A stretch of DNA of 64,000 nucleotides from Escherichia phage vB_EcoM_PHB13: sequence record MK573636; one strand, written 5' to 3'. Position 1 is the stretch's first letter. Every line of letters starts with the position of its first letter. The notes under the pieces are model-generated. The model searched no databases, had not been told where the DNA came from, and saw nothing but the letters and a program-made list of their open reading frames with translations. Position numbers and translations under genes: made by a program. Of the stretch, positions 1,840-45,271 are shown in pieces.

Positions 1840-3639
1840 TCACCCAAGATCAATACGGCTACCATCAATTTTAACTGTACCAGATGCAATATCTTTAACG
1901 CTTGCACCACAATTACGGGACCAGTCACCATTAACCTGGTCTGATTTAGTGCCATTGACGGTCATATTAAAATTACCCTCAACGGTTAAATCATAGTTAC
2001 CTTTAATTGTTTCGGTAGTGTTACCCTCGATCATTAATTCAGCATTACCCTTGACGTTAGCCGTCAAATTGGCGTCAAGCTGCGCGGTAACATCACCTAC
2101 AACATGCATATTTGCAGTACCTTCAACGGTCTGATTAACATTGCCACGAATAAATTCAGTGACGTTACCATCAACGGTTTGCATCACATTACCCATATAA
2201 TAAACTTGCGCGTCACCTTCAACAACAACTTGCAGATTTCCTTTAACGTTGACTTTGCGACCTTGCTTAACGATCAAATAATCATCACCTTCAATCTTTT
2301 CTACCCTCGTTCCGTCCGGTCTGGTTTCTTCAAATGTACCAGAAGGATGTTTACGATGATAACGCTCGTGAGAAGGAGTATCATCAATCTCGATAATATG
2401 ACCGCTCTCTGACTCGTACACATGGTTATATGGATACCTTGCAGAATACGAACTCTTAGGCTCTTTAAACATGATTCGTGTGTCTTGTGGGGTAAACGGT
2501 GCTTCTGGGTCTTCTTCTGCTCTCTGCGTCTTATAGGCAGCAATACGGGCATTTCTCAAACGTGCTCGCGGATCATCCGAAATTGATTCCTCTTTCTTTG
2601 GAGCAATTACGCCATATGATTCTAAGTTACCAGTTAAAATAATTTTAGAAACACGGCTTGAACGTCCTGGAGTTTGGTTAGCCCATACCGATTGACGTAA
2701 TCCATCATAGGCTTGTTTCCATTCTTCCGCTAACATCGCAGCAAGACTATTCTTAAATTTACCCAATCCACCAACGCCCATTTGAAACGCCATATTTTCT
2801 AATGCCATACGACGAGAAGCATTACACTTATTATAGACAGGTGCAATTCGTGGATGTTTGCGCATATCACGACGAGTCTTTTCTATATCGTCAGCAAATA
2901 CTTTACTGACTTCTTCGGCTGTAAGTCTTCCGTTTGTAACTTCACGCCCTACCAGCTTAGAAAGTTCATTATTGATAATACCCAGATCACTGGTTTTCTT
3001 ATAAATGATCAAATGCCCGATTCCTATTGTCGGATATCCTTCTGAATCAAGATACCATTTCTCACGATATCCCTCATCGCCACGAAGCATTTTTTCTATT
3101 GTAAAATCAGGATTATCATCAACCGGAATTTGATCTAATGGCTCGTCGTCTGGATTTACTGCAACTCCAGTGTTTTCATCTCGAATATAGACACTATCAG
3201 GTTTTGTTGTTTGTCCGGTTTCTGGGTTAATACCGCCACGGGCAAGAATATTAACATCATTACCGATATAACGCGGATATGCACCGGAAGGGTCGCAAAA
3301 ACCTTCTGTAGTGAGTGGTTTCTCTGTATATTGTCCGGCAATAGTACCCAGAATAACGCAGTTTAAATAACGTTCATCTAAAGCCAAACCAAATACCATT
3401 GAACCTTCAACAATACCAGTAGGGCTTTGACCTATACCGGAGATCGCCGCGCTTGTAATATCTTGTACTGGCGTAATCCATAATAGATCTTCGGTTGGAA
3501 GACCTTGAATGTCACCGTGTGCGGATAGCGAAGGATGTATACCATGAATCCTAACCTGAACACGCCCCAGCATTAATGGGTCTTCCCTGTTTTCTACAAT
3601 TCCGGTAAACCATTTAACGGAGTTATTAAACATTAGCAT
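1840..3639 (-). CDS. 5: baseplate central spike / tail lysozyme gp5
   Basis: 599 aa. Central T4-lysozyme-like domain (...MLRGDEGYREKWYLDSEGYPTIGIGHLI...) and C-terminal beta-helix repeats (VxGNxxxxV repeated many times) are typical of the T4 cell-puncturing device. Confidence 0.9.
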   Translation of the reverse strand: MLMFNNSVKWFTGIVENREDPLMLGRVQVRIHGIHPSLSAHGDIQGLPTEDLLWITPVQDITSAAISGIGQSPTGIVEGSMVFGLALDERYLNCVILGTIAGQYTEKPLTTEGFCDPSGAYPRYIGNDVNILARGGINPETGQTTKPDSVYIRDENTGVAVNPDDEPLDQIPVDDNPDFTIEKMLRGDEGYREKWYLDSEGYPTIGIGHLIIYKKTSDLGIINNELSKLVGREVTNGRLTAEEVSKVFADDIEKTRRDMRKHPRIAPVYNKCNASRRMALENMAFQMGVGGLGKFKNSLAAMLAEEWKQAYDGLRQSVWANQTPGRSSRVSKIILTGNLESYGVIAPKKEESISDDPRARLRNARIAAYKTQRAEEDPEAPFTPQDTRIMFKEPKSSYSARYPYNHVYESESGHIIEIDDTPSHERYHRKHPSGTFEETRPDGTRVEKIEGDDYLIVKQGRKVNVKGNLQVVVEGDAQVYYMGNVMQTVDGNVTEFIRGNVNQTVEGTANMHVVGDVTAQLDANLTANVKGNAELMIEGNTTETIKGNYDLTVEGNFNMTVNGTKSDQVNGDWSRNCGASVKDIASGTVKIDGSRIDLG

Positions 3640-3650
3640 AATTAATCACC

Positions 3651-4205
3651 TTACACATCAGCCTTTTCCATTTCTCGAATGAATGCGTTAATAAATTGTT
3701 TAATTTGTGTAGGATCTATGATCTTGATCTTGCGTCGTTCCTCATTACGGAGGATCGCATCTTCCAGTGTGTCTACTGCCGATAATGCACCTTGAAACTG
3801 CAAATGACGATGATGAATATCCCCTTTATCATACCAGTTGCTTGATCCTTTCGGATATTCGGTAAGATTCCAATACTTGTTTCCGTCAATATCAACGTGG
3901 TATAATACTTGATTTCCTCCTACATTTGCATATCGTTGTTCGGCTGATTCATATGCTGTCTCTTGATCGGTGATCCAGTCATGAAACGGATCGTATACGT
4001 CATTAAGCATCAGCAAGATCCAATAAAGTTGCTGGTTTCCGTATACTTCATATGCAACTTGTTCCGGTCGTGGACTACCTTGAATGTAATATGTTTGTAT
4101 GTTATAATCAGAAATTATTGCGTTGAAATATGCGCGGTAATTGCGCACAATGTCAGTAATCATCTTGCCGTTGTATTCTATGGCAGGGAAGAAAGAAAAG
4201 AGCAT
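3651..4205 (-). CDS. 53: baseplate wedge subunit gp53
   Basis: 184 aa, first gene of the minus-strand late operon upstream of gp5; size and position match T4 gp53; late promoter motif just upstream. Confidence 0.75.
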   Translation of the reverse strand: MLFSFFPAIEYNGKMITDIVRNYRAYFNAIISDYNIQTYYIQGSPRPEQVAYEVYGNQQLYWILLMLNDVYDPFHDWITDQETAYESAEQRYANVGGNQVLYHVDIDGNKYWNLTEYPKGSSNWYDKGDIHHRHLQFQGALSAVDTLEDAILRNEERRKIKIIDPTQIKQFINAFIREMEKADV

Positions 4206-4237
4206 TTTATCACCCTCAATTGATAAATAGTATTATG

Positions 4238-4245
4238 TATTTATA
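4238..4245 (-). promoter_or_regulatory. T4-type late promoter (TATAAATA on the minus strand) for the 53-5-5.1-5.4-6 operon
   Basis: Plus-strand TATTTATA, i.e. TATAAATA on the minus strand, about 33 bp upstream of the gene 53 start, with a GAGGGTG Shine-Dalgarno between them. Confidence 0.5.
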
Positions 4246-4260
4246 ATAAAGGGTGCTAAA

Positions 4261-4734
4261 ATGGGAGGATCTAACACTTATAAGGGCAAGTATGTTCCTG
4301 AGAATAAGGAAAAATATAAAGGGGATATACGGAAAATCACATACCGTTCAAGCTGGGAATTGCATGTTTTTAAATGGTGTGACCGTAATCCTCATGTGGT
4401 TAAATGGGGGTCTGAGACCGTTGTAATTCCTTACAATTCATCAACAGACGGTAAGCGTCACAGATATTTTGTTGATGTTTATGTTAAGTTTGATGATGGA
4501 AAAGAGCATTTATGGGAAATTAAGCCAGCCAAAGAGACTAGACCACCAGAAAAGCCAAAGCGATTAACGACTAAAACAAAGCAGCGTTATATGATGGAGG
4601 CTTGGACGTGGACGAAAAATACCGAAAAGTGGGCAGCGGCAGTAGCATTGTGTAAAAAACATAATATGGAATTTAAAATCATAACCGAACACACATTAAA
4701 AAAGGTGTTCGGTTTTAAAGGTTTAAATAAGTGA
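4261..4734 (+). CDS. 4: head completion protein gp4
   Basis: 157 aa, divergent from gene 53 as in T4; contains ...ITYRSSWELHVFKWCDRNPHV... region; size matches T4 gp4 (150 aa). Confidence 0.75.
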   Translation: MGGSNTYKGKYVPENKEKYKGDIRKITYRSSWELHVFKWCDRNPHVVKWGSETVVIPYNSSTDGKRHRYFVDVYVKFDDGKEHLWEIKPAKETRPPEKPKRLTTKTKQRYMMEAWTWTKNTEKWAAAVALCKKHNMEFKIITEHTLKKVFGFKGLNK

Positions 4735-5745
4735 GTTCTTAAAGTCTTTTACTATAGTTTGATAGCATTGGTCGGGATACCCATTCTCGACCGCTATTTT
4801 TCTTGTTTTTCTATCGCTAGGCATACCATGTTCTTTCCACAGCTTATATATTTCGTCATAATATACCCAGACACCAGAATTTTTTCTGGGATTTAATTTT
4901 ATTAGGTCGTTTCCATTCTCCTTTATGTACTTATTTTTCATTTCTTTAACGATGTAATCATATGACCTATCTGGGTATCCACGTTTAATGGCCTCGCGCT
5001 TGAATACATATTGACCCGGCATATTCAGATCAATCCATAATGCATATAACTCATCAAATTTCCCCCATGTTTCTTTCGGTTTTTGTGAATCTGAAAGTAG
5101 TTTGGCGATTCTTTGTTTTTCTTCGTCTGACTTTGAGTTTATAGTTTGTAGAAGCCTTTCTCTTCGTAATTTAAGTTTTTCCTCTGATCTATTACTTAAC
5201 GCCTTTGATATTTTCTTTCCACGTTCTTTATACTTTCTTTCTCGTTCTTCATCGCTCAAGTTTCTAAAATGTTCTTTAACGGAATCAGTTCTTTTCTTAT
5301 GGCGACGTTTTAATTCTTCTTCATCAAGAGAAGCCATGAAACGTTTTTGTGATTCCGACATTTTCAGTCTAGATTCTTCCGTGTATACATGTTTTCGCTT
5401 TGCCTCTTCTGATATACCAGCAAGTTTCAACACAATATCTTCTGGCAATTCCTTCATAATATCAATTCTGGTATTAAACATCATAACAACAGACTTCCAA
5501 ATGGAATTTGTTGCTTTACTGAAATAGTAGTGTGCCATCATATGACGAACGGTGTTCAAGTGAACAGCATTAAAATCATGAATTTTAAGGTCTTCATATT
5601 CCTTCCAAATTGATTTTGGTAGAATATGATGCCTCTCTAATTCCCCATCCTTATCTGGGTTTTCACAAATTTCTAGATACTTTTCTAAATACTTGATATC
5701 TGCATTCGGAAACTGCATCAAAATTTTGTTCTTAATATCTTGCAT
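4723..5745 (-). CDS. free-standing HNH homing endonuclease (seg/mob-like)
   Basis: 340 aa. N-terminal His-Asn-His arrangement (ERHHILPKS...NAVHLNTVRHMMAH); C-terminal half carries two copies of a GYPD(R/Q)xY..IVK(E/D)xKN module consistent with a duplicated DNA-binding domain. Opposite strand, inserted between conserved genes 4 and 2. Confidence 0.5.
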   Translation of the reverse strand: MQDIKNKILMQFPNADIKYLEKYLEICENPDKDGELERHHILPKSIWKEYEDLKIHDFNAVHLNTVRHMMAHYYFSKATNSIWKSVVMMFNTRIDIMKELPEDIVLKLAGISEEAKRKHVYTEESRLKMSESQKRFMASLDEEELKRRHKKRTDSVKEHFRNLSDEERERKYKERGKKISKALSNRSEEKLKLRRERLLQTINSKSDEEKQRIAKLLSDSQKPKETWGKFDELYALWIDLNMPGQYVFKREAIKRGYPDRSYDYIVKEMKNKYIKENGNDLIKLNPRKNSGVWVYYDEIYKLWKEHGMPSDRKTRKIAVENGYPDQCYQTIVKDFKNSLI

Positions 5746-5871
5746 CTAATGTTCCTCCTGTGTTATAATGATATTTATCAACAAGTATCGCTGTTTATTT
5801 TCGTCTGCATTTTAGCAATAGCAAAGAGGATTGTCAAGTGTGTAACAAACATAAACATAGAGGATAATATT

Positions 5872-6693
5872 ATGAGCGTATTTGAAATAATCACCGAAGA
5901 CGAAAAGCCGTCTCCCCAAAAACGAAAGTCTAAACAGTGGGTCGAATTGGGTGTAGAATTTGCGAAGGCAAAAGCCAAAGGCATGACAGCTAAAGCATTT
6001 GCAGATTCTAAGGGAATAGCCTATGCGACTTTCACTAAAAGTATGTCTCGTTATGCAAGCGAAATTAAAACAGCAATAGAAGTTGAAAAACTAAAAGGGA
6101 AAGGTGCAAAGGGTCTCAATAAGCAGCAACGCGCAATGATGATGATTAATGATTTTCGTGCGTCTATGCGTGCTGTATCAAAGAGTCGTCCTAAAGAAAA
6201 ATCACAAGAGTGGTTTACTAAAACAATAAAATCGGGAATAAAGGGACACCAGATTGTAAAACCGCAAGTAGGGCGAATCTATACCTTTATGTATGATGCG
6301 AAGTATAAAGACACTTTGCCATATTGGGATGTTTTCCCGCTGATCATTTGTCTGGGTGATTCTAAGACAAAGGCGGGTAATACTGTAATGCTGGGTCTTA
6401 ACTTACACTATGTAACGCCTAAAGCCCGTCAGCAGTTTTTAGAGGCACTTTTAAAGCAATATGCATCTACTCCTACCTTGAGTAATAAAACACGCTTAAA
6501 AATCAAATGGAGCGATGTAAAAGGTATGCGTGGAAGTGATCACATGATCAAAGCATATCTACCGGGACACATTAAAACAAAACTTGTTGAGATTAGCCCG
6601 AAAGATTGGTCGAATATCATCTATATGCCAACATATCAGTTTATGTCAAAAGGCAAGAAATACGACGCAAGGAAAGTCTGGAAGGATGCATAA
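5872..6693 (+). CDS. 2: DNA end protector protein gp2
   Basis: 273 aa from the ATG at 5872 (SD AGAGGATAATATT-ATG); the ORF-track start at 5740 lies in the promoter region. Size and synteny (4-2-3-1) match T4 gp2. Confidence 0.8.
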   Translation: MSVFEIITEDEKPSPQKRKSKQWVELGVEFAKAKAKGMTAKAFADSKGIAYATFTKSMSRYASEIKTAIEVEKLKGKGAKGLNKQQRAMMMINDFRASMRAVSKSRPKEKSQEWFTKTIKSGIKGHQIVKPQVGRIYTFMYDAKYKDTLPYWDVFPLIICLGDSKTKAGNTVMLGLNLHYVTPKARQQFLEALLKQYASTPTLSNKTRLKIKWSDVKGMRGSDHMIKAYLPGHIKTKLVEISPKDWSNIIYMPTYQFMSKGKKYDARKVWKDA

Positions 6694-6699
6694 GATTAA

Positions 6700-6722
6700 G
6701 CCCGTCAATGACGGGCTTTTTA
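6700..6722 (+). terminator. intrinsic terminator after gene 2
   Basis: GCCCGTCAATGACGGGC hairpin followed by a T-tract. Confidence 0.6.
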
Positions 6723-6977
6723 TTATAGATCGATAGCATGAGCATAACCATGTAAGAAGTCTTTTAATTCTTCCTTATTGGTAACACGCTGTAAAATCTC
6801 TAATGCCTTGTCGCGATCACGTAATGCGCCTGAAAGGGATTTTATTTGGTCATCCCTTTCGGCAATCTGCTTAATCAGATCTGTATTGCATTTAGACAAA
6901 TAGAGAACTTCACCCCGCAATGTTGCTAATTCGTTATCCAAACGATCATAGAGTTTTAACAAAATGTCTTCTGTCAT
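6723..6977 (-). CDS. hypothetical coiled-coil protein
   Basis: 84 aa minus-strand ORF between genes 2 and 3; heptad-like charged sequence; no recognisable domain. Confidence 0.35.
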   Translation of the reverse strand: MTEDILLKLYDRLDNELATLRGEVLYLSKCNTDLIKQIAERDDQIKSLSGALRDRDKALEILQRVTNKEELKDFLHGYAHAIDL

Positions 6978-7166
6978 AAGAAGTCCTCGTATAGTACCCG
7001 TTTTATTTATTACTGTATAAAAATATAGTTATTGGTTAAAACATAACCAAAACGAAGAAAGATCTTTAGAATATAGAAAATTTGTTTCGGTTAAAAAGTA
7101 GTCAGTGCCTACGGCACGTCGCAAAGCGACAATTGTTAATAAATATTTTCATTTGAGGAATCGAAA

Positions 7167-7757
7167 ATGTCCAATCTCTTTAATTATGCTAACCCTAGTA
7201 ACTGGCAGATCAATATTCCAGATGGACAACTAACAAAAGGCTTTACTTTAAATGCTCAAGGTGTTACACTTCCGGCTATAACCATTCCACCGACTAAACA
7301 AGTTGCTGGTCAATATGGTTTGGCGGTCGCTGATTATCCTTCCAGTCATGTAGAGTTTGACCCGTTGGTAGTCCGGTTTATTGTCGATGAGCATTTGGAA
7401 AGCTATCTAAACCTTTACACATGGATGCTTTCTATAGTAGACTACAATAACGGTAACTCCACCGCGTGGAAGGATTCAATGCCGGAAGCCGTTCAAGTTC
7501 ACATGATGGACAACGAACGCCGTAACATTGTGTGCACTTTTAACTTTTATGGTTGTTGGTGTTCACAATTGGGGGAACTTGAGTTAACATACACCGATGA
7601 CATGCATGAATCTCTGGTGTGTACTGCAATTCTTCCATTTAAAACAATGAGCATTGAACGTGATGGTCAACTGATCGTTCCTCGCCCAGCAATTCAGGCG
7701 GCGGATCGTCAGCGAGTGGAAGGTATTAAAGCTATGCACCCTGCATTTAGAAAGTAA
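7167..7757 (+). CDS. 3: tail completion and sheath stabiliser gp3
   Basis: 196 aa; position between 2 and 1 as in T4. Confidence 0.7.
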   Translation: MSNLFNYANPSNWQINIPDGQLTKGFTLNAQGVTLPAITIPPTKQVAGQYGLAVADYPSSHVEFDPLVVRFIVDEHLESYLNLYTWMLSIVDYNNGNSTAWKDSMPEAVQVHMMDNERRNIVCTFNFYGCWCSQLGELELTYTDDMHESLVCTAILPFKTMSIERDGQLIVPRPAIQAADRQRVEGIKAMHPAFRK

Positions 7758-26276: not shown

Positions 26277-26534
26277 ATGAAGATTGAAATTATTAGTGAT
26301 GCCGATTATTCTTTCTTGAAAGGTGTTAAACTTCCGATCATTGTTAGAGGAACTCCCTTCTATGATAGTTTTTTGGTAACGACCAAAGAATTACGCAAAG
26401 CTGGCGTTTCCTTTGAGGGAATTTACAATGATGATTATGAATGGTGTTTCTTGGATAGATTTGCCCGTAAAGCAGAAAAAGCACGAAAAGAATCATGCTT
26501 TGCTCGCTTTAATAACTGGTTGAGGAAGCTGTAA
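26277..26534 (+). CDS. small protein, KIEII/GVKLPII family
   Basis: 85 aa (MKIEIISDADYSFLKGVKLPIIVRG...YEWCF), tandem paralog. Confidence 0.45.
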   Translation: MKIEIISDADYSFLKGVKLPIIVRGTPFYDSFLVTTKELRKAGVSFEGIYNDDYEWCFLDRFARKAEKARKESCFARFNNWLRKL

Positions 26535-26872
26535 TGAACGAACCGAAAATGTATTTGTTGCTGAATGATTCAGGATACACCTTCTTACAAGGTGTCGAAA
26601 GTGATTCCCGTCCGATTGTATATGGCAAGGAGCATCCGACCATTCCTGGGATCATTCTTGTTACGACAAGATCACTTCGTCGAGTGTCGGAAAGCCCATA
26701 CCTACAAAACGTAAAGCAAGACCGAGAATGGGCTTTCGAGTTGGGTAAAGACCTTGTTGAATGGGTAAACTGTGAAGACAAGAACCAAAGAAATCATGAA
26801 AAGAAGATTGCACGACTTGAACATAGAAGAAAACTTGATGAAATCAAAAACAGGATTCTACAATCAATGTAA
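26534..26872 (+). CDS. small protein, KIEII/GVKLPII family (divergent)
   Basis: 112 aa (..DSGYTFLQGVESDSRPIVYG...REWAF). Confidence 0.4.
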   Translation: MNEPKMYLLLNDSGYTFLQGVESDSRPIVYGKEHPTIPGIILVTTRSLRRVSESPYLQNVKQDREWAFELGKDLVEWVNCEDKNQRNHEKKIARLEHRRKLDEIKNRILQSM

Positions 26873-28973: not shown

Positions 28974-29405
28974 ATGGTTTATCCAACTCCTAGTAAGATT
29001 TACATTGATGATACCCATTTTATGGTTGATATGATGGGTATAAAGTTTAGTGGTATTGTTAAAATTGTAGAATGGGAATTGCACGGTCAACCTGTCACTG
29101 ACTATGACCATTACATTCCTTTTTTGGGTGATGACAATTTTGTCTCGTTTGACCATGAAGGTTACATGATCTTTGAACAGTCTGACGTACCGACCTATCT
29201 GGCAATGATGCAAATTCCTACGAAGGTTTCTGTTGCTGAGGGTGATTGCGATTGCTGCGGTTGGTATAGTGTAACAGATATTAAGTTGCCATCCGGTAAA
29301 GAACTCTATAACGAAGACCATTTTGGAAACTGCAACTTTCCGTGTGATTGGGATGAATTTTTCGAACTGGTAGAAACTGAAAGAACTTATTTAAGGAAGG
29401 GATAA
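28974..29405 (+). CDS. hypothetical Cys-rich protein
   Basis: 143 aa; CDCC and CNFPC motifs. Confidence 0.4.
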   Translation: MVYPTPSKIYIDDTHFMVDMMGIKFSGIVKIVEWELHGQPVTDYDHYIPFLGDDNFVSFDHEGYMIFEQSDVPTYLAMMQIPTKVSVAEGDCDCCGWYSVTDIKLPSGKELYNEDHFGNCNFPCDWDEFFELVETERTYLRKG

Positions 29406-30220
29406 TGAAGAAAGCATTAGGTTTAATTCCCTATACTGGCAATAAGGAAAAGTTATTGCCTGGTGTTAGTAAGTATTTCCCTAAGCACTACAACCGCTTT
29501 GTTGATGCCTTTTGTGGTGGTTTGAGCGTGTCTCTGTATGTTGAAGGTGATGTGCTGGCTAATGACTATGATCACCGTTTAATTGACGCTTACAAGGCCA
29601 TTGATGCGTGTCCTGACCCAGTTTCTACGATCAAGCGGATTATTGCCGAGAATGGTTTGTCTCGCGATGATAAAGATGCTTACATGGCATTCCGCAAGAA
29701 GTATAACGAGAATCCAGATCCGCTATCTCTGTTTGTGTTGATTCAACATAGTTTTAGCAACATTAACCGCCATAACCGGAAGGGCGAATTTAATGCTAAT
29801 TTTGGTCGCCGGACTTTTAACGAAAACGCGGTAGAGCGTGTCCTGAATTTTAAGGAAGAAAACAAAGACGGTCGAATCAGTTTTACGTCTGGACGATATG
29901 ACGAGATCGAGATCTTGCCGGATGATTTCGTTTTCCTTGATCCGCCATATTGGATCACGTCGGCAGAATATAATAAGTTCTGGAGTGAAGAAGAAGAGAT
30001 TAAATTCTACATGTGGATAGAATCATTAATGTCTAGCGGTGCTAAGTTTGGATTAAGCAATGTTACTCACCACAAAGGGAAAGTTAACAACCATCTGCTC
30101 GATTTTATCGAACGTAATGATGTTTCTGTTGTTGAACTGGATAAAACATATTGTTTAGATCGTAGCGGGGGTAAAAAATCCGATACTAAGGAAGTTTATG
30201 TCACCAATGTTAAAATATGA
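29405..30220 (+). CDS. dam: DNA adenine methyltransferase (Dam-like, N6-A MTase)
   Basis: 271 aa; N-terminal AdoMet motif (FVDAFCGGLSV) and catalytic DPPY (FLDPPYW), typical of T4 Dam / GATC MTases. Confidence 0.85.
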   Translation: MKKALGLIPYTGNKEKLLPGVSKYFPKHYNRFVDAFCGGLSVSLYVEGDVLANDYDHRLIDAYKAIDACPDPVSTIKRIIAENGLSRDDKDAYMAFRKKYNENPDPLSLFVLIQHSFSNINRHNRKGEFNANFGRRTFNENAVERVLNFKEENKDGRISFTSGRYDEIEILPDDFVFLDPPYWITSAEYNKFWSEEEEIKFYMWIESLMSSGAKFGLSNVTHHKGKVNNHLLDFIERNDVSVVELDKTYCLDRSGGKKSDTKEVYVTNVKI

Positions 30221-30953
30221 GGTTATACACAAGACTCCAGAAGATAAACGTTTATATGATTTATATCATTCACGGTTTTATTATGATGATGGTTTTCTTA
30301 GGTGGAAGATTCACCCGCACCGAAAAGGTGTTATAAACGGATTAGCTGGAAGTGATACCCCCGATGGGTATCGTATTGTATGGACTGGCGAGCGATACGA
30401 ACGTATGCACCGTGTTATCTATCATATGTTTCATGGTCATTGTCCTAAGTATATAGATCATAAAGACCGAGATCGTTATAATAGCCGCATTGAAAACCTT
30501 AGAGAGACGACAAGCAAACAAAATAATATGAATATGAGCAAGACCAAATGCAAAACATATTCGAAGTATAAAGGTGTGTCGTTTAATAAGAATAAAGGTT
30601 ATTGGACTGGTGCAATAATGTTGGATGGGAAGTCGATACATTTAGGATATTTTCCCTCTGAGATCGGTGCGGCGTATGCATATAATCTTGCAGCGTTGAA
30701 ACATTTTGGTGATAGGTATTGTATAAACGAGATTGATGATATAGAATATGCAAAGTCTGAATATGGCAAGAAGCTCCAAAAAGCAGCAAGTTCCCGTCAT
30801 AGATACGTTTACAAAGTACCAAAACAAGGTAATTACGGTGCTAAAGTTCGCGGTGTGTATATAGGAAGATTTGACACAGAAGATGATGCGGCACGGGCAG
30901 TTAATGCCTATATTATTGAAAATGAACTTGATATAGAACTGAATGAGGTATAA
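30198..30953 (+). CDS. HNH-AP2 homing endonuclease
   Basis: 251 aa; HNH_3-type motif (IDHKDRDRYNSRIENLRETTSKQNNMN) followed by two AP2-like DNA-binding domains (YKGVSFNKNKGYWTGAI..., NYGAKVRGVYIGRFDTEDDAARAVNAYI). Start overlaps the last 23 nt of dam. Confidence 0.75.
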   Translation: MSPMLKYEVIHKTPEDKRLYDLYHSRFYYDDGFLRWKIHPHRKGVINGLAGSDTPDGYRIVWTGERYERMHRVIYHMFHGHCPKYIDHKDRDRYNSRIENLRETTSKQNNMNMSKTKCKTYSKYKGVSFNKNKGYWTGAIMLDGKSIHLGYFPSEIGAAYAYNLAALKHFGDRYCINEIDDIEYAKSEYGKKLQKAASSRHRYVYKVPKQGNYGAKVRGVYIGRFDTEDDAARAVNAYIIENELDIELNEV

Positions 30954-30954
30954 C

Positions 30955-31236
30955 ATGGTAGAAATTTTTGGTTTTGAGGGTTACAACTGTAAGTATTGCC
31001 AGAATGCAAAGCGACTTTGTGAATCGCGTAAGATCCCTTACATCTACATTCCGGTTAATGATGGTGTAGACGAAAACGGTCGTCCGGTAAAGATTGATTA
31101 TATCATTGCCGACATTCAGGATCGCGCAGGGGTAGAAGTTATTGCCACCATGCCGCAGATTTTCTATAATGGTGATTATATTGGTGGTTTTGATGAGTTC
31201 CGTTCCTTTGTAGTCAAAAACAAGATTAATGGTTAA
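30955..31236 (+). CDS. nrdC: glutaredoxin / thioredoxin NrdC
   Basis: About 93 aa with CKYC active site and C-terminal PQIFYNGDYIGGFDEF glutaredoxin signature; T4 nrdC position next to gene 49. Confidence 0.75.
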   Translation: MVEIFGFEGYNCKYCQNAKRLCESRKIPYIYIPVNDGVDENGRPVKIDYIIADIQDRAGVEVIATMPQIFYNGDYIGGFDEFRSFVVKNKING

Positions 31237-38794: not shown

Positions 38795-39259
38795 ATGAAA
38801 TGGGAAGCTGGTAAGACCTATGCGTGGAAAGATGTAAAAGATGCAAACCAATTTTTTAAATGGTATGATGTTGATTATTTGAAATATCTGAGATTACCGT
38901 TTAAAGTTGCGTCGGTTGATGCGAAAAAAGGATACGTGCGGTCTGTTTATCTTCATGATGGAACTTATATGAGTTCAACCGATGTAGGTCTATCTTGTTG
39001 GTTTCTGGATCATGACCGTAGCAGATTTGAAGAAATTATTATTCCAGAAGAATCTAAATTAATTGATCTTCTCAAGTTGGCGATGGATAATTATAAAATC
39101 CGCTTTGAATGCAAATCACATGCGGCTATCGGTGCTAACGCCTTGCGTCATATCTCCAGTTTTGAAGAGTTGAAAGATTTTCTTGACAAAATGCCGGAAA
39201 GGGTGCAAGCTATACAGGAAGCAGAGAAAGCATTAAACGAACTTGATAAAATCGGTTAA
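38795..39259 (+). CDS. WExGKTY-family protein (paralog 2)
   Basis: About 154 aa starting MKWEAGKTYAWKD. Confidence 0.45.
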   Translation: MKWEAGKTYAWKDVKDANQFFKWYDVDYLKYLRLPFKVASVDAKKGYVRSVYLHDGTYMSSTDVGLSCWFLDHDRSRFEEIIIPEESKLIDLLKLAMDNYKIRFECKSHAAIGANALRHISSFEELKDFLDKMPERVQAIQEAEKALNELDKIG

Positions 39260-39271
39260 GGGGAATATATT

Positions 39272-40096
39272 ATGAAATGGGAAATTGGTAAAACTTACAC
39301 CTGGAAAGACGAAAACGCTAAAACTGAGTTTATTACTAACGGAGAAGGTGTTCTTTCTCCACTTAACAGCGATATTAGTGCAGCTATTGGTGACAAGCCA
39401 TTTACCATCATCGAGATCGAGGGTAACGGTTGGATTGATGCAATAGAGCTAGACGGTGTTTATCATACGGCGAAAACTGCTACAGGAAAAGACATTTGGA
39501 AGTCAACATATTTGTTTAGTCCATTTGATAGAAAATTCTTTCGTGAAGTTGAAGAAGTTCCCCAGAAATGGGAAGTTGGTAAAACTTATACTTGGAAAGA
39601 TATTAAGGCTATGACCGACTTCTGTCATTATGCCGAAAACGTATCTAACCTTAATTATGTTATTGCACGAGCAATAAATTATAGACCTTTTACTGTTAAA
39701 AATGTTCGTCCATGTGGGCAAATTGATGTAATTGAAATTGATGGTAAAGACCATACTCTAATGAGCGCAACCGAAGATAGAGACCATAAAGGAACTAGCT
39801 GGTTTATTGATTCTGATAGAAAATTCTTTCGTGAAGTAGAAGAATTGGAAGTTATAACCACTGATTCTAAGATCGTTGGACAGTTGAAACGTCTGTTTAG
39901 TAGTCGTTACGGCCTGACAATGGTTAAATTTGGCGAAGCAAATGAAGGTAAAACCTTTGAACGTTTCGATGATTTCATTTCGGCACTTGACAAGATGGAT
40001 GAAATCATGCAAGATCGCCAGAAGATTAAAGACCTTCAAGAAGACATTAAACGTCGTGAAGTTGAATTTTTGATTGGTAAAGAGCGAGGATGGTAA
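39272..40096 (+). CDS. WExGKTY-family protein (paralog 3, internally duplicated)
   Basis: 274 aa with two copies of the module (MKWEIGKTYTWKD... and ...QKWEVGKTYTWKD..., each ending DRKFFREVEE). Confidence 0.45.
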   Translation: MKWEIGKTYTWKDENAKTEFITNGEGVLSPLNSDISAAIGDKPFTIIEIEGNGWIDAIELDGVYHTAKTATGKDIWKSTYLFSPFDRKFFREVEEVPQKWEVGKTYTWKDIKAMTDFCHYAENVSNLNYVIARAINYRPFTVKNVRPCGQIDVIEIDGKDHTLMSATEDRDHKGTSWFIDSDRKFFREVEELEVITTDSKIVGQLKRLFSSRYGLTMVKFGEANEGKTFERFDDFISALDKMDEIMQDRQKIKDLQEDIKRREVEFLIGKERGW

Positions 40097-45000: not shown

Positions 45001-45025
45001 CTCTAAAAATTGATTGGAGGTTGTT

Positions 45026-45271
45026 ATGGTTACTAATGCACTGAAAGAAATCAACGAAGGTTTGTCGAAATTCACTAAGATCCATGTATTTGAGGTTGTG
45101 CGAGATGGTCAGTATATGCTATCATTTCGGTCTAACTATGGTTTATGGACTCATGACGAAATCCCATTTGATCGTGAAAATATCACCAAAGAGTGGCTAA
45201 CAAACATCGTATCCCGTAAGGTTGCTGATATTACCCAGAATGTTATTGCTCGTGAATCGTGGAGTATGTAA
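45026..45271 (+). CDS. hypothetical protein
   Basis: About 81 aa after GGAGG SD. Confidence 0.4.
   Translation: MVTNALKEINEGLSKFTKIHVFEVVRDGQYMLSFRSNYGLWTHDEIPFDRENITKEWLTNIVSRKVADITQNVIARESWSM

What the first reader, a model, noticed from the sequence alone, without database searches (positions are those of the whole stretch)
4723..5745. HNH endonuclease gene inserted on the opposite strand between head completion gene 4 and gene 2
A 340-aa ORF with an HNH-like His-Asn-His arrangement and a tandemly duplicated C-terminal module (GYPDRSYDYIVKEMKN / GYPDQCYQTIVKDFKN) interrupts the otherwise conserved 4-2-3-1 block and is transcribed in the opposite direction, the hallmark of a free-standing homing endonuclease. 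The nearby gene 2/4 sequence is a candidate homing site.
Basis: partly seen in the sequence, partly recalled or inferred. Interest (0 to 1): 0.45.

Follow-up and report, generated by a model that had tools for sequence, protein, structure and literature searches.

The report
Mob-like HNH homing endonuclease insert
A selfish, self-spreading nuclease gene has been inserted between two conserved head genes of an RB49-like coliphage and brought a foreign piece of the neighbouring gene with it; this kind of element is well known in T4-type phages, so it is a clean but ordinary example.

Summary
Window 4723..5745 (-) is a real 340-aa ORF. It lies in a 1,126-bp insertion (about 4731-5856) between gene 4 and gene 2 of a Krischvirus (RB49-like) phage, and only 2 of 59 related phage records carry it.

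The protein has an N-terminal HNH (His-Me finger) motif (H39 H40 N59 H68 H72 invariant in the family), a K/E-rich NUMOD3-like linker, and two tandem copies of a about 50-aa C-terminal module. GIY-YIG (Seg-like) and HNH (Mob-like) endonucleases also carry this module.

No Pfam model hits the protein directly. Support comes from PHROG hits, family profiles and motif alignment; fold searches were inconclusive.

The cassette has its own early-type sigma-70 promoter and Shine-Dalgarno. It is nearly identical in three phage backbones whose closest relatives lack it. It is always linked to a 375-bp tract of gene 4 that is 25% diverged with saturated synonymous sites, while gene 2 is unchanged. This is a co-conversion signature and puts the likely target in gene 4.

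The orthologue in phage Ec_Makalu_002 is already annotated and published as an HNH homing endonuclease. Interest is low to moderate. The side observation is that gene 4 is flanked by several different endonuclease genes, each with its own diverged tract.

The parts
4723..5745 (-). Homing endonuclease ORF, 340 aa
   Evidence: ORF. (PHROG 655 homing endonuclease 7e-15; PHROG 12434 HNH endonuclease 5e-6). (the 99% identical orthologue in Ec_Makalu_002 is annotated 'putative homing endonuclease, HNH family'). (13 copies, none with a stop; 11 synonymous and 4 non-synonymous variant sites).
5386..5745 (-). N-terminal nuclease domain (aa 1-120). The HNH core is aa 37-72, at 5530-5637.
   Evidence: AlphaFold model pLDDT 95.1, pTM 0.88, with strand 37-40, strand 60-63 and helix 65-79, which is a beta-beta-alpha arrangement. 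H39 H40 P43 N59 H68 H72 are invariant. The family profile's best PDB hits are HNH domains aligned on this motif.
5077..5385 (-). Central K/E-rich helical linker (aa 121-223) that aligns with the NUMOD3 repeats of homologues
   Evidence: alignment. (17 of 23 family members hit Pfam NUMOD3, best 1.6e-20; the window protein itself does not). (long helices, pLDDT 62-87).
4921..5073 (-). C-terminal module, copy 1 (aa 225-275); predicted three-helix, presumed DNA-binding
   Evidence: repeat E 9e-14. (helices 230-239, 245-254, 263-277; pLDDT about 90). (module alignment; W, W and Y invariant).
4726..4875 (-). C-terminal module, copy 2 (aa 291-340)
   Evidence: the same module forms the C-terminus of a GIY-YIG SegA-like protein (VR26, 47% identity) and of an HNH+NUMOD3 MobE-like protein (VR5, 37%).
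5809..5837 (-). Sigma-70 early-type promoter of the cassette: TTGACA, 17 nt, (TGc)TAAAAT
   Evidence: 11 of 12 matches, TG before the -10; it is the only - strand match to TTGAC[AT]-N15-18-TAnnnT in the 64-kb window, against 37 on the + strand. This is a consensus match only; it has not been shown to fire.
5754..5759 (-). Shine-Dalgarno AGGAGG, 8 nt before the ATG
   Evidence: sequence.
4731..5856 (.). Inserted cassette, 1,126 bp relative to endonuclease-free Krischvirus genomes
   Evidence: alignment gaps in RB49, Phi1, E26, GEC-3S, JEP8, Makalu_001, Whisky. The right junction lies directly before gene 2's own ribosome-binding site (ATAGAGGATAATATTATG).
4357..4734 (+). Cassette-linked diverged tract of gene 4; it spans about the last 126 of the gene's 157 codons. 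Candidate co-conversion tract and candidate location of the target or immunity polymorphisms.
   Evidence: 75% nucleotide identity to RB49, synonymous sites saturated, 1-2 differences in 374 nt among cassette-bearing genomes; the window-type gp4 protein was found on 10 of 10 displayed contigs, always next to the 340-aa ORF.
4261..4734 (+). Gene 4 (head completion); left neighbour and probable target gene
   Evidence: PF08722, 5e-21. (PHROG 218 head closure, 1e-60).
5872..6693 (+). Gene 2 (DNA end protector); right neighbour, not diverged
   Evidence: PHROG 429, 3e-72. (10-18 differences in 744 nt to all relatives).

Best explanation
This is a free-standing homing endonuclease gene of the T4 Mob type. 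It has an N-terminal HNH (His-Me finger) nuclease domain, a NUMOD3-like linker and two C-terminal DNA-binding modules, and it sits in a self-contained 1.1-kb cassette with its own early promoter and ribosome-binding site.

Inferred mechanism: when a phage with the cassette and one without it infect the same cell, the enzyme is made early and binds a site in the cassette-free allele of gene 4, within about 375 bp of the gene 4/gene 2 junction. It nicks or cuts there. T4 MobE and MobA, the studied relatives, nick one strand. Recombination-dependent repair then copies the cassette, plus the adjacent 3' part of gene 4, from the cassette-bearing genome. The carrier's own diverged gene 4 tract is probably not recognised, which would protect it.

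Shown here: the insertion, the domain motifs, the sporadic distribution, the diverged tract and its linkage to the cassette, the sharing across different backbones, and signs of purifying selection. Inferred: nuclease activity, the position of the target, nick versus double-strand cut, promoter use, and immunity of the carrier allele.
For: The 1,126-bp insert is present in 2 of 59 Krischvirus records.

Family and motif evidence:
- PHROG homing endonuclease 7e-15 and HNH endonuclease 5e-6.
- tblastn match to a MobD-like endonuclease: 26% identity over 81% of the protein, E 2e-6.
- An HMM of close homologues finds 5,544 representative proteins at E<=1e-3.
- 17 of 23 relatives carry NUMOD3, and 7-8 hit Pfam HNH.
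- H39 H40 N59 H68 H72 are invariant.
- A profile of the N-terminal domain has as its best PDB hits the HNH domains of a group II intron maturase (E 0.028), McrA (0.17) and Cas8f-HNH (0.62), all aligned on the HH..N..H..H motif.
- The confident model shows beta-beta-alpha.

Mobility evidence:
- The cassette plus gene 4 tract differ by only 1-2 in 374 nt and 9-12 in 1,126 nt among the window, Cognac and Makalu_002.
- Their left flanks match cassette-free phages best: Makalu_002 against Makalu_001 0/1741, window against E26 8/1741, Cognac against Phi1 or GEC-3S 14/1741. Against each other they differ by 35-58/1741.
- The gene 4 tract is 75% identical to RB49 with saturated dS, while gene 53 and gene 2 are 98-100% identical.
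- The window-type gp4 allele was seen only next to the ORF: 10 of 10 displayed contigs, and the allele matches at 99% or more in only 2 phage records, both of them cassette carriers.

Function evidence: 13 copies are intact, with 11 synonymous against 4 non-synonymous variant sites. The cassette has its own promoter and Shine-Dalgarno.

Precedent: MobE nicks T2 nrdB near its insertion site and co-converts flanking DNA (PMC2790892).
Against: No Pfam or NCBIfam model hits this protein directly.

Sequence search against PDB with the single protein found nothing.

Profile-to-PDB E-values are marginal (0.03-0.6).

About 5% of 100-bp windows elsewhere in the genome are also at least 15% diverged from E26. 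A diverged patch on its own is therefore not rare in these phages.

The left boundary of the tract falls in the same interval (4335-4357) in all carriers, so independent homing events cannot be told apart from one acquisition followed by ordinary recombination.

No cleavage site is known.
Confidence: 0.8

Rival explanations
1. The ORF is an inactive relic of a homing endonuclease. It was acquired once with a foreign piece of gene 4 and now moves among Krischvirus genomes only by ordinary homologous recombination of its flanks.
For: There is no direct curated-model hit. All carriers share the same left recombination interval. Mosaic patches are common in these genomes. Defunct endonucleases are known in T4, for example I-TevIII.
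Against: All 13 copies are intact and the catalytic residues are conserved. Variant sites are 11 synonymous against 4 non-synonymous. The promoter and Shine-Dalgarno are retained. The cassette is more conserved (about 1% divergence) than the backbones that carry it (2-3% in the flanks), which points to recent spread.
Confidence: 0.1
2. The protein is kept mainly because it benefits the phage. It could be a weapon that damages competing cassette-free Krischvirus genomes in mixed infections (marker exclusion), or a DNA-binding regulator, with homing only a by-product.
For: The cassette has its own early promoter, uncoupled from the late genes around it. It has two DNA-binding modules. The ORF appears to be under purifying selection. 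Localized marker exclusion by T4 endonucleases (SegF, SegG) is in the titles of references 53 and 54 of PMC2993671.
Against: Nothing in the sequence separates this from selfish homing. The gene is rare (2 of 59 records), which does not suggest a general fitness benefit. Mechanistically it overlaps the best explanation.
Confidence: 0.08
3. The ORF is ancestral to Krischvirus and has been lost from most members; it was not inserted.
For: Presence/absence data alone cannot give the direction of the change.
Against: Cassette-free genomes have an 11-nt gene 4/gene 2 spacer with no scar. The ORF is tied to a gene 4 tract with saturated synonymous divergence inside backbones that are otherwise 97-100% identical. 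Carriers are scattered over three backbone types. The closest full-length homologue is only 30% identical.
Confidence: 0.02

Closest known systems
Phage T4 MobE, and MobA-MobD: free-standing HNH homing endonucleases
   Same: These have an N-terminal HNH motif of the form E-x-HH-I-hydrophobic-P-[KR] ... N-L-V-x-L-x(4)-H-x(3)-H, NUMOD3-type linker repeats and a C-terminal DNA-binding region. They are inserted between conserved genes and are sporadic among close relatives. MobE acts on the neighbouring gene (nrdB), and flanking polymorphisms are co-inherited. A MobE-like protein in phage VR5 shares the C-terminal module of the window protein (37% identity).
   Different: Identity to annotated Mob proteins is only about 24-26%. 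The insertion site is different (gene 4/gene 2, inside the late structural region). The ORF is antisense to its neighbours and has its own sigma-70-type promoter, whereas T4 mobE is promoter-less and co-transcribed with nrdA. It has two copies of the C-terminal module. Its activity is untested.
Makalu002_131 (QGS83736.1) of Escherichia phage Ec_Makalu_002, and DEFFOIHO_00131 of phage Cognac
   Same: These are orthologues: 99.1% protein identity, the same position and the same orientation. GenBank annotates the Makalu_002 gene as 'putative homing endonuclease, HNH family'. The genome paper notes it as an HNH-type homing endonuclease absent from Makalu_001 and Phi1 (PMC11611945).
   Different: Differences are a few substitutions; the window copy has a private E28 where all the others have A28. 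The paper does not analyse a target, a co-conversion tract or domain structure.
Solved HNH (His-Me finger) nucleases: the HNH domain of a group II intron maturase (6me0), McrA (6ghc), and the phage GVE2 HNH endonuclease (5h0o)
   Different: The match is limited to about 40 residues, with marginal E-values. The surrounding helices (aa 1-35 and 80-120) have no counterpart in solved structures. There are no zinc-binding cysteines.
T4-type Seg (GIY-YIG) free-standing endonucleases, for example the SegA-like protein of VR26 and a Seg-like protein of IME281
   Same: They share the about 50-aa C-terminal module (W..YDELY.LW...F..IAV.NGYPD..Y..M...F): 47% identity to VR26 SegA-like. IME281 carries it in tandem like the window protein.
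   Different: The catalytic domain is unrelated (GIY-YIG rather than HNH). This is domain shuffling, not orthology.

Membership tests
HNH / His-Me finger nuclease superfamily | Conserved catalytic motif: an HH pair (general base and metal ligand), a structural Asn, and distal His metal ligand(s) | tested here: met
   H39, H40, N59, H68 and H72 are invariant in 21- and 51-sequence alignments. They align with the motif of the 6me0, 6ghc and 8ydb HNH domains.
HNH / His-Me finger nuclease superfamily | Significant match to a curated HNH model | tested here: inconclusive
   The window protein has no Pfam or NCBIfam hit. It hits PHROG 12434 'HNH endonuclease' at 5e-6. Pfam HNH (PF01844) is hit by 7 of 23 and 8 of 51 family members, and HNH_5 and HNH_4 by fewer. 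The family profile against PDB gives E 0.028 for an HNH domain.
HNH / His-Me finger nuclease superfamily | Beta-beta-alpha-metal fold | tested here: inconclusive
HNH / His-Me finger nuclease superfamily | Metal-dependent DNA nicking or cleavage | not testable with these tools
   Needs a biochemical assay.
T4 Mob-type free-standing homing endonucleases | Architecture: N-terminal HNH, NUMOD3 linker repeats, C-terminal DNA-binding region | tested here: met
   The HNH motif is at aa 37-72. The central region aligns with the NUMOD3 repeats of homologues, although Pfam NUMOD3 does not score on this protein itself. The C-terminal module is shared with MobE-like and SegA-like endonucleases.
T4 Mob-type free-standing homing endonucleases | Sequence homology to annotated Mob proteins | tested here: met
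   PHROG 655 'homing endonuclease' 7e-15. tblastn to a MobD-like endonuclease of phage Melville: 26% identity over 81% of the protein, E 2e-6. The relationship is distant.
Homing endonuclease gene (functional class) | Presence/absence polymorphism at one site among close relatives, with flanking genes intact | tested here: met
   Present in 2 of 59 records. The insertion is exact at the gene 4/gene 2 junction, and gene 4 and gene 2 remain intact.
Homing endonuclease gene (functional class) | Co-converted flanking tract, and horizontal spread that disagrees with the backbone | tested here: met
   A 375-bp gene 4 tract, 25% diverged, is strictly linked to the ORF. The cassette is shared by three backbones whose nearest relatives lack it.
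Homing endonuclease gene (functional class) | Cleavage of the cassette-free allele, and biased inheritance in mixed infection | not testable with these tools
   Needs phage crosses and cleavage mapping.

The most novel reading that the evidence does not exclude
Gene 4 (head completion) of Krischvirus phages is a contested site for several different homing endonucleases, each linked to its own diverged stretch of the gene:
- This ORF, downstream of gene 4, goes with a diverged 3' tract of 375 bp.
- A 231-aa HNH+NUMOD3 endonuclease upstream of gene 4 in MIZ3 and Brandy goes with a diverged 5' tract of about 120 bp.
- A 30%-identical homologue sits upstream of gene 4 in one metagenome contig. That gene 4's first 60 nt are MIZ3-type (98% identity), nt 61-120 match neither type well (72-75%), and the rest is window-type (85-95%) up to the contig end.

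On this reading the endonuclease-free but strongly diverged JEP8/Whisky allele is a cleavage-resistant escape allele or a scar of a lost endonuclease. Endonuclease traffic, rather than selection on the virion protein, would then drive the allelic diversity of an essential structural gene.
Probability: 0.35. Interest if true: 0.45.

Novelty: new member of a known kind. Interest (0 to 1): 0.27.

Why it matters
In itself it matters little. Free-standing HNH endonucleases are common in T4-type phages, and this one's orthologue is already annotated as such.

Its practical value is as a very clean natural test system. Makalu_001 and Makalu_002 are nearly isogenic around the locus (0 differences in 1,741 bp on the left) and differ by the cassette plus a 375-bp marked tract. 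Homing frequency, co-conversion length, target site and allele immunity could all be measured directly with them.

The region from gene 53 to ORF130 also holds at least three other endonuclease insertions, each with its own diverged tract. That makes it a compact model for how selfish nucleases create mosaic boundaries in essential phage genes, a pattern proposed more generally by Barth et al. 2023 (PMC10448857).

Tried and rejected
Searches that gave nothing useful:
- Pfam and NCBIfam on the protein alone gave no relevant hit.
- phmmer against PDB sequences gave only a spurious coiled-coil match.
- Foldseek against PDB gave nothing below E 1, with either the full-length model or the N-terminal domain model.
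- A profile of the C-terminal module against PDB sequences gave nothing, so DNA binding remains an inference.
- Pfam on the C-terminal 120 aa gave nothing.
- The T4 late promoter TATAAATA is absent from the insert. How gene 2 is transcribed in carriers is therefore open. The + strand has an extended -10-like TGTTATAAT at 5761-5769 and a terminator-like hairpin at 4769-4793, but these are consensus matches only.
- The cassette's intergenic segment is not repeated elsewhere in the window, so it is not a repeated regulatory cassette.
- Scans of IMG/VR and JGI metagenomes for the window-type gene 4 allele found none.
- No donor lineage for the cassette was found: the closest full-length homologue is 30% identical.

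Rejected readings:
- A chance ORF. It has homologues and shows purifying selection.
- An ancestral gene lost elsewhere. See the rival explanations.

Full report
**What the window is.** The region is the gene 5 / 53 / 4 / 2 / 3 / 1 segment of a T4-type phage. Megablast places it in the genus Krischvirus (RB49-like coliphages). Fifty-nine phage records match window 3600-7200, most at 93-95% identity over 68% of the query, and only two (Ec_Makalu_002 and Cognac) cover the whole query.

**The observation.** ORF 4723..5745 (-) encodes 340 aa and is preceded by AGGAGG, 8 nt before the ATG.
- In RB49, Phi1, E26, GEC-3S, JEP8, Makalu_001 and Whisky, gene 4 ends 11 nt before gene 2 starts.
- The window has 1,126 additional bases at 4731-5856.
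- The right junction lies directly in front of gene 2's own ribosome-binding site.
- On the left, the ORF's last four codons overlap the last four codons of gene 4 tail to tail.

**What the protein is: sequence evidence.**
- Pfam and NCBIfam give no relevant hit for the protein alone. PHROGs gives 'homing endonuclease' (phrog_655, 7e-15) and 'HNH endonuclease' (phrog_12434, 5e-6).
- tblastn against phages finds the two orthologues at 99%. After those come only distant matches: a MobD-like endonuclease (26% over 81% of the query) and putative HNH homing endonucleases of Aeromonas phages (34% over the N-terminal 130 aa, E 1e-19). The C-terminal 50-70 aa also match the C-terminal ends of a SegA-like GIY-YIG protein (VR26, 47%) and a MobE-like HNH+NUMOD3 protein (VR5, 37%).
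- In the 5.8-billion-protein collection the closest non-orthologue is 30% identical (P0002), followed by Vibrio 'NUMOD3 domain-containing' proteins.
- A profile of these close homologues finds 5,544 cluster representatives at E<=1e-3, so the family is large.
- Across 21-51 aligned relatives, H39, H40, P43, N59, H68 and H72 are invariant.
- Of the relatives, 17 of 23 hit Pfam NUMOD3 and 7-8 hit Pfam HNH.
- A profile of the N-terminal domain has, as its best matches among PDB sequences, the HNH domains of a group II intron maturase (E 0.028), McrA (0.17) and Cas8f-HNH (0.62). All three align on HH..N..H..H.

**What the protein is: structure evidence.**
- The AlphaFold model of residues 1-120 is confident (pLDDT 95, pTM 0.88). 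It places the motif on strand-strand-helix (37-40, 60-63, 65-79).
- The two C-terminal modules are predicted three-helix units. They have no solved relative by sequence. Their DNA-binding role is inferred from their position at the C-termini of two unrelated endonuclease classes. A Seg-like GIY-YIG protein in phage IME281 also carries the module in tandem.
- Repeated, shuffled DNA-binding domains in phage homing endonucleases have been described before (PMC10448857).

**Evidence for mobility: the diverged gene 4 tract.**
- Against cassette-free relatives, the window is 0-2% diverged in gene 53 and gene 2 but 16-25% diverged per 100 bp across gene 4 from about 4357 to the insertion.
- Over the 375-bp tract, nucleotide identity to RB49 is 75%. 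Over all of gene 4, 52 codons differ synonymously and 21 non-synonymously, gp4 is 87% identical, and the Nei-Gojobori dS is saturated.
- Patches this diverged make up about 5% of 100-bp windows in a 52-kb comparison with E26, so a diverged patch alone is not remarkable.

**Evidence for mobility: linkage and spread.**
- The tract is found only with the ORF. In the phage collection only the two carriers have it (at least 99% identity); every other record is at most 81%.
- In the assembly collection, all 10 displayed contigs that encode exactly this gp4 have the 340-aa ORF next to it.
- All contigs carrying the orthologous ORF show the same gene context.
- The cassette and tract are nearly identical among the window, Cognac and Makalu_002: 1-2 differences in 374 nt and 9-12 in 1,126 nt.
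- Their left flanks are closest to cassette-free phages. Makalu_002 against Makalu_001 is 0/1741, the window against E26 is 8/1741, and Cognac against Phi1 or GEC-3S is 14/1741. Against each other the three carriers differ by 35-58/1741.
- This pattern fits a cassette that has recently moved between backbones and dragged one flank with it. Experimental MobE homing leaves the same kind of pattern (PMC2790892).
- Because the whole visible tract is in gene 4 and none is in gene 2, the target most likely lies in gene 4. The carrier's diverged allele is the likely source of self-immunity. Both points are inferences.

**Expression.**
- The insert carries TTGACA, 17 nt, (TGc)TAAAAT on the - strand at 5837-5809.
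- This is the only - strand match to the early-promoter pattern in the 64-kb window; the + strand early region has 37.
- The cassette is therefore probably transcribed early and independently of the late genes on either side. That also explains why its antisense orientation is tolerated.
- T4 mobE differs in this respect: it is promoter-less.
- There is no late promoter consensus in the insert, so how gene 2 is transcribed in carriers is unknown.

**Is the gene still functional?** Thirteen copies are all intact. Fifteen variant sites split into 11 synonymous and 4 non-synonymous. This fits purifying selection, although the sample is small.

**Surroundings.** The same short region holds other endonuclease insertions in other Krischvirus genomes.
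- A 231-aa HNH+NUMOD3 gene lies between genes 53 and 4 in MIZ3 and Brandy. There the first about 120 nt of gene 4 are diverged (58-72% identity to RB49) and the rest is 95-100% identical to RB49.
- The 30%-identical homologue P0002 lies upstream of gene 4 on a metagenome contig. That gene 4's first 60 nt are MIZ3-type (98%). The next 60 nt match neither type well (72-75%). The remainder, up to where the contig ends inside gene 4, is window-type (85-95% nucleotide identity; protein identical from residue 31 to that end).
- A 343-aa CapR-domain endonuclease follows gene 2 in Phi1 and Cognac and, judging from the annotation and match length, also in ECD7. In Phi1 and Cognac there is local divergence at window 6600-6700.
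- JEP8 and Whisky carry a further, strongly diverged gene 4 allele with no endonuclease.

**Novelty.** The orthologue is annotated 'putative homing endonuclease, HNH family' in GenBank. The genome paper mentions it as absent from Makalu_001 and Phi1 (PMC11611945). The finding is a correct identification of an ordinary, uncharacterised member of a well-known class. The linked gene 4 tract and the crowding of endonucleases around gene 4 are the only parts that go beyond the existing annotation.

Noticed in passing
window 30198-30953 (+), with 29901-30200 upstream: This is a second free-standing endonuclease gene in the window: 251 aa, Pfam HNH_3 2e-13 plus AP2 1e-8. It lies between a methylase-like ORF (29405..30220) and a small ORF (30943..31236), whose homologues in E26 are annotated DNA adenine methylase and thioredoxin. 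It is absent from phage E26 (unaligned 30211-30940). The 300 bp just upstream are 17-31% diverged from E26 and the downstream side is not, the same one-sided pattern as at gene 4.
   Followed up: partly
window about 6690 (3' end of gene 2); L002 2961-3992, L003 4087-5115: Phi1 and Cognac, and by annotation and match length ECD7 (and probably FL37, FL38 and G2248), carry a 1,024-bp insertion here encoding a 343-aa endonuclease (PHROG 681 endonuclease 9e-77; Pfam CapR domain 2e-10). The window lacks it. In Phi1 and Cognac the last about 100 bp of gene 2 are 24-25% diverged from the window. Cognac carries both endonucleases.
   Followed up: partly
L025 2545-3240 (MIZ3), L026 (Brandy); corresponds to window about 4206-4260: A third insertion site: a 231-aa HNH+NUMOD3 endonuclease between genes 53 and 4, in the same orientation as gene 4. 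It is linked to a diverged first about 120 nt of gene 4, while the rest of the gene is RB49-like.
   Followed up: partly
L023 45-1013 and 1006-1428: On a metagenome contig, the closest full-length homologue of the window protein (P0002, 30% identity) sits directly upstream of gene 4. That gene 4's first 60 nt are MIZ3-type (98% identity), nt 61-120 match neither type well (72-75%), and the rest is window-type (85-95% nucleotide identity; gp4 identical to the window's from residue 31 to where the contig ends, residue 141). Related endonucleases are thus repeatedly found next to gene 4.
   Followed up: partly
L007 and L009 1662-2138 (JEP8, Whisky); corresponds to window 4261-4734: A further gene 4 allele: 69% nucleotide identity to the window and 74-75% to RB49, with one extra codon and no adjacent endonuclease. 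The 74.7% match of G2494 and the 76.4% match of ELT4 and MIZ3 point to still more alleles. These could be escape alleles or scars of lost endonucleases; this is untested.
   Followed up: no
window 4261-4734 (+): The head completion protein gp4 matches Pfam PF08722 'TnsA-like endonuclease N terminal' at 5e-21. A PHROG 'endonuclease' family also matches weakly. This structural head protein therefore shows clear sequence similarity to a nuclease domain family.
   Followed up: no
window 39557-39809, and patches at 26301-26600, 38801-39100, 45001-45200: A 253-bp stretch is absent from E26, and several other 100-300-bp patches are 16-38% diverged from E26 in an otherwise about 96-97% identical genome. 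Their gene content was not examined.
   Followed up: no
L027 491-901 and 898-1548 (phage IME281, downstream of nrdB): Two adjacent GIY-YIG-like ORFs. The second (216 aa, annotated hypothetical) starts with a GIY-YIG-like motif and ends with two tandem copies of the same C-terminal module as the window protein. The tandem module arrangement is therefore not unique to this gene.
   Followed up: partly
window 4769-4793 (+) and 5761-5769 (+): Inside the cassette, on the strand of genes 4 and 2, there is a terminator-like hairpin with a T-run 35 nt after the gene 4 stop codon and an extended -10-like TGTTATAAT about 100 nt before gene 2. If either is functional, the insertion has rewired gene 2 transcription. 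Both are consensus matches only.
   Followed up: no
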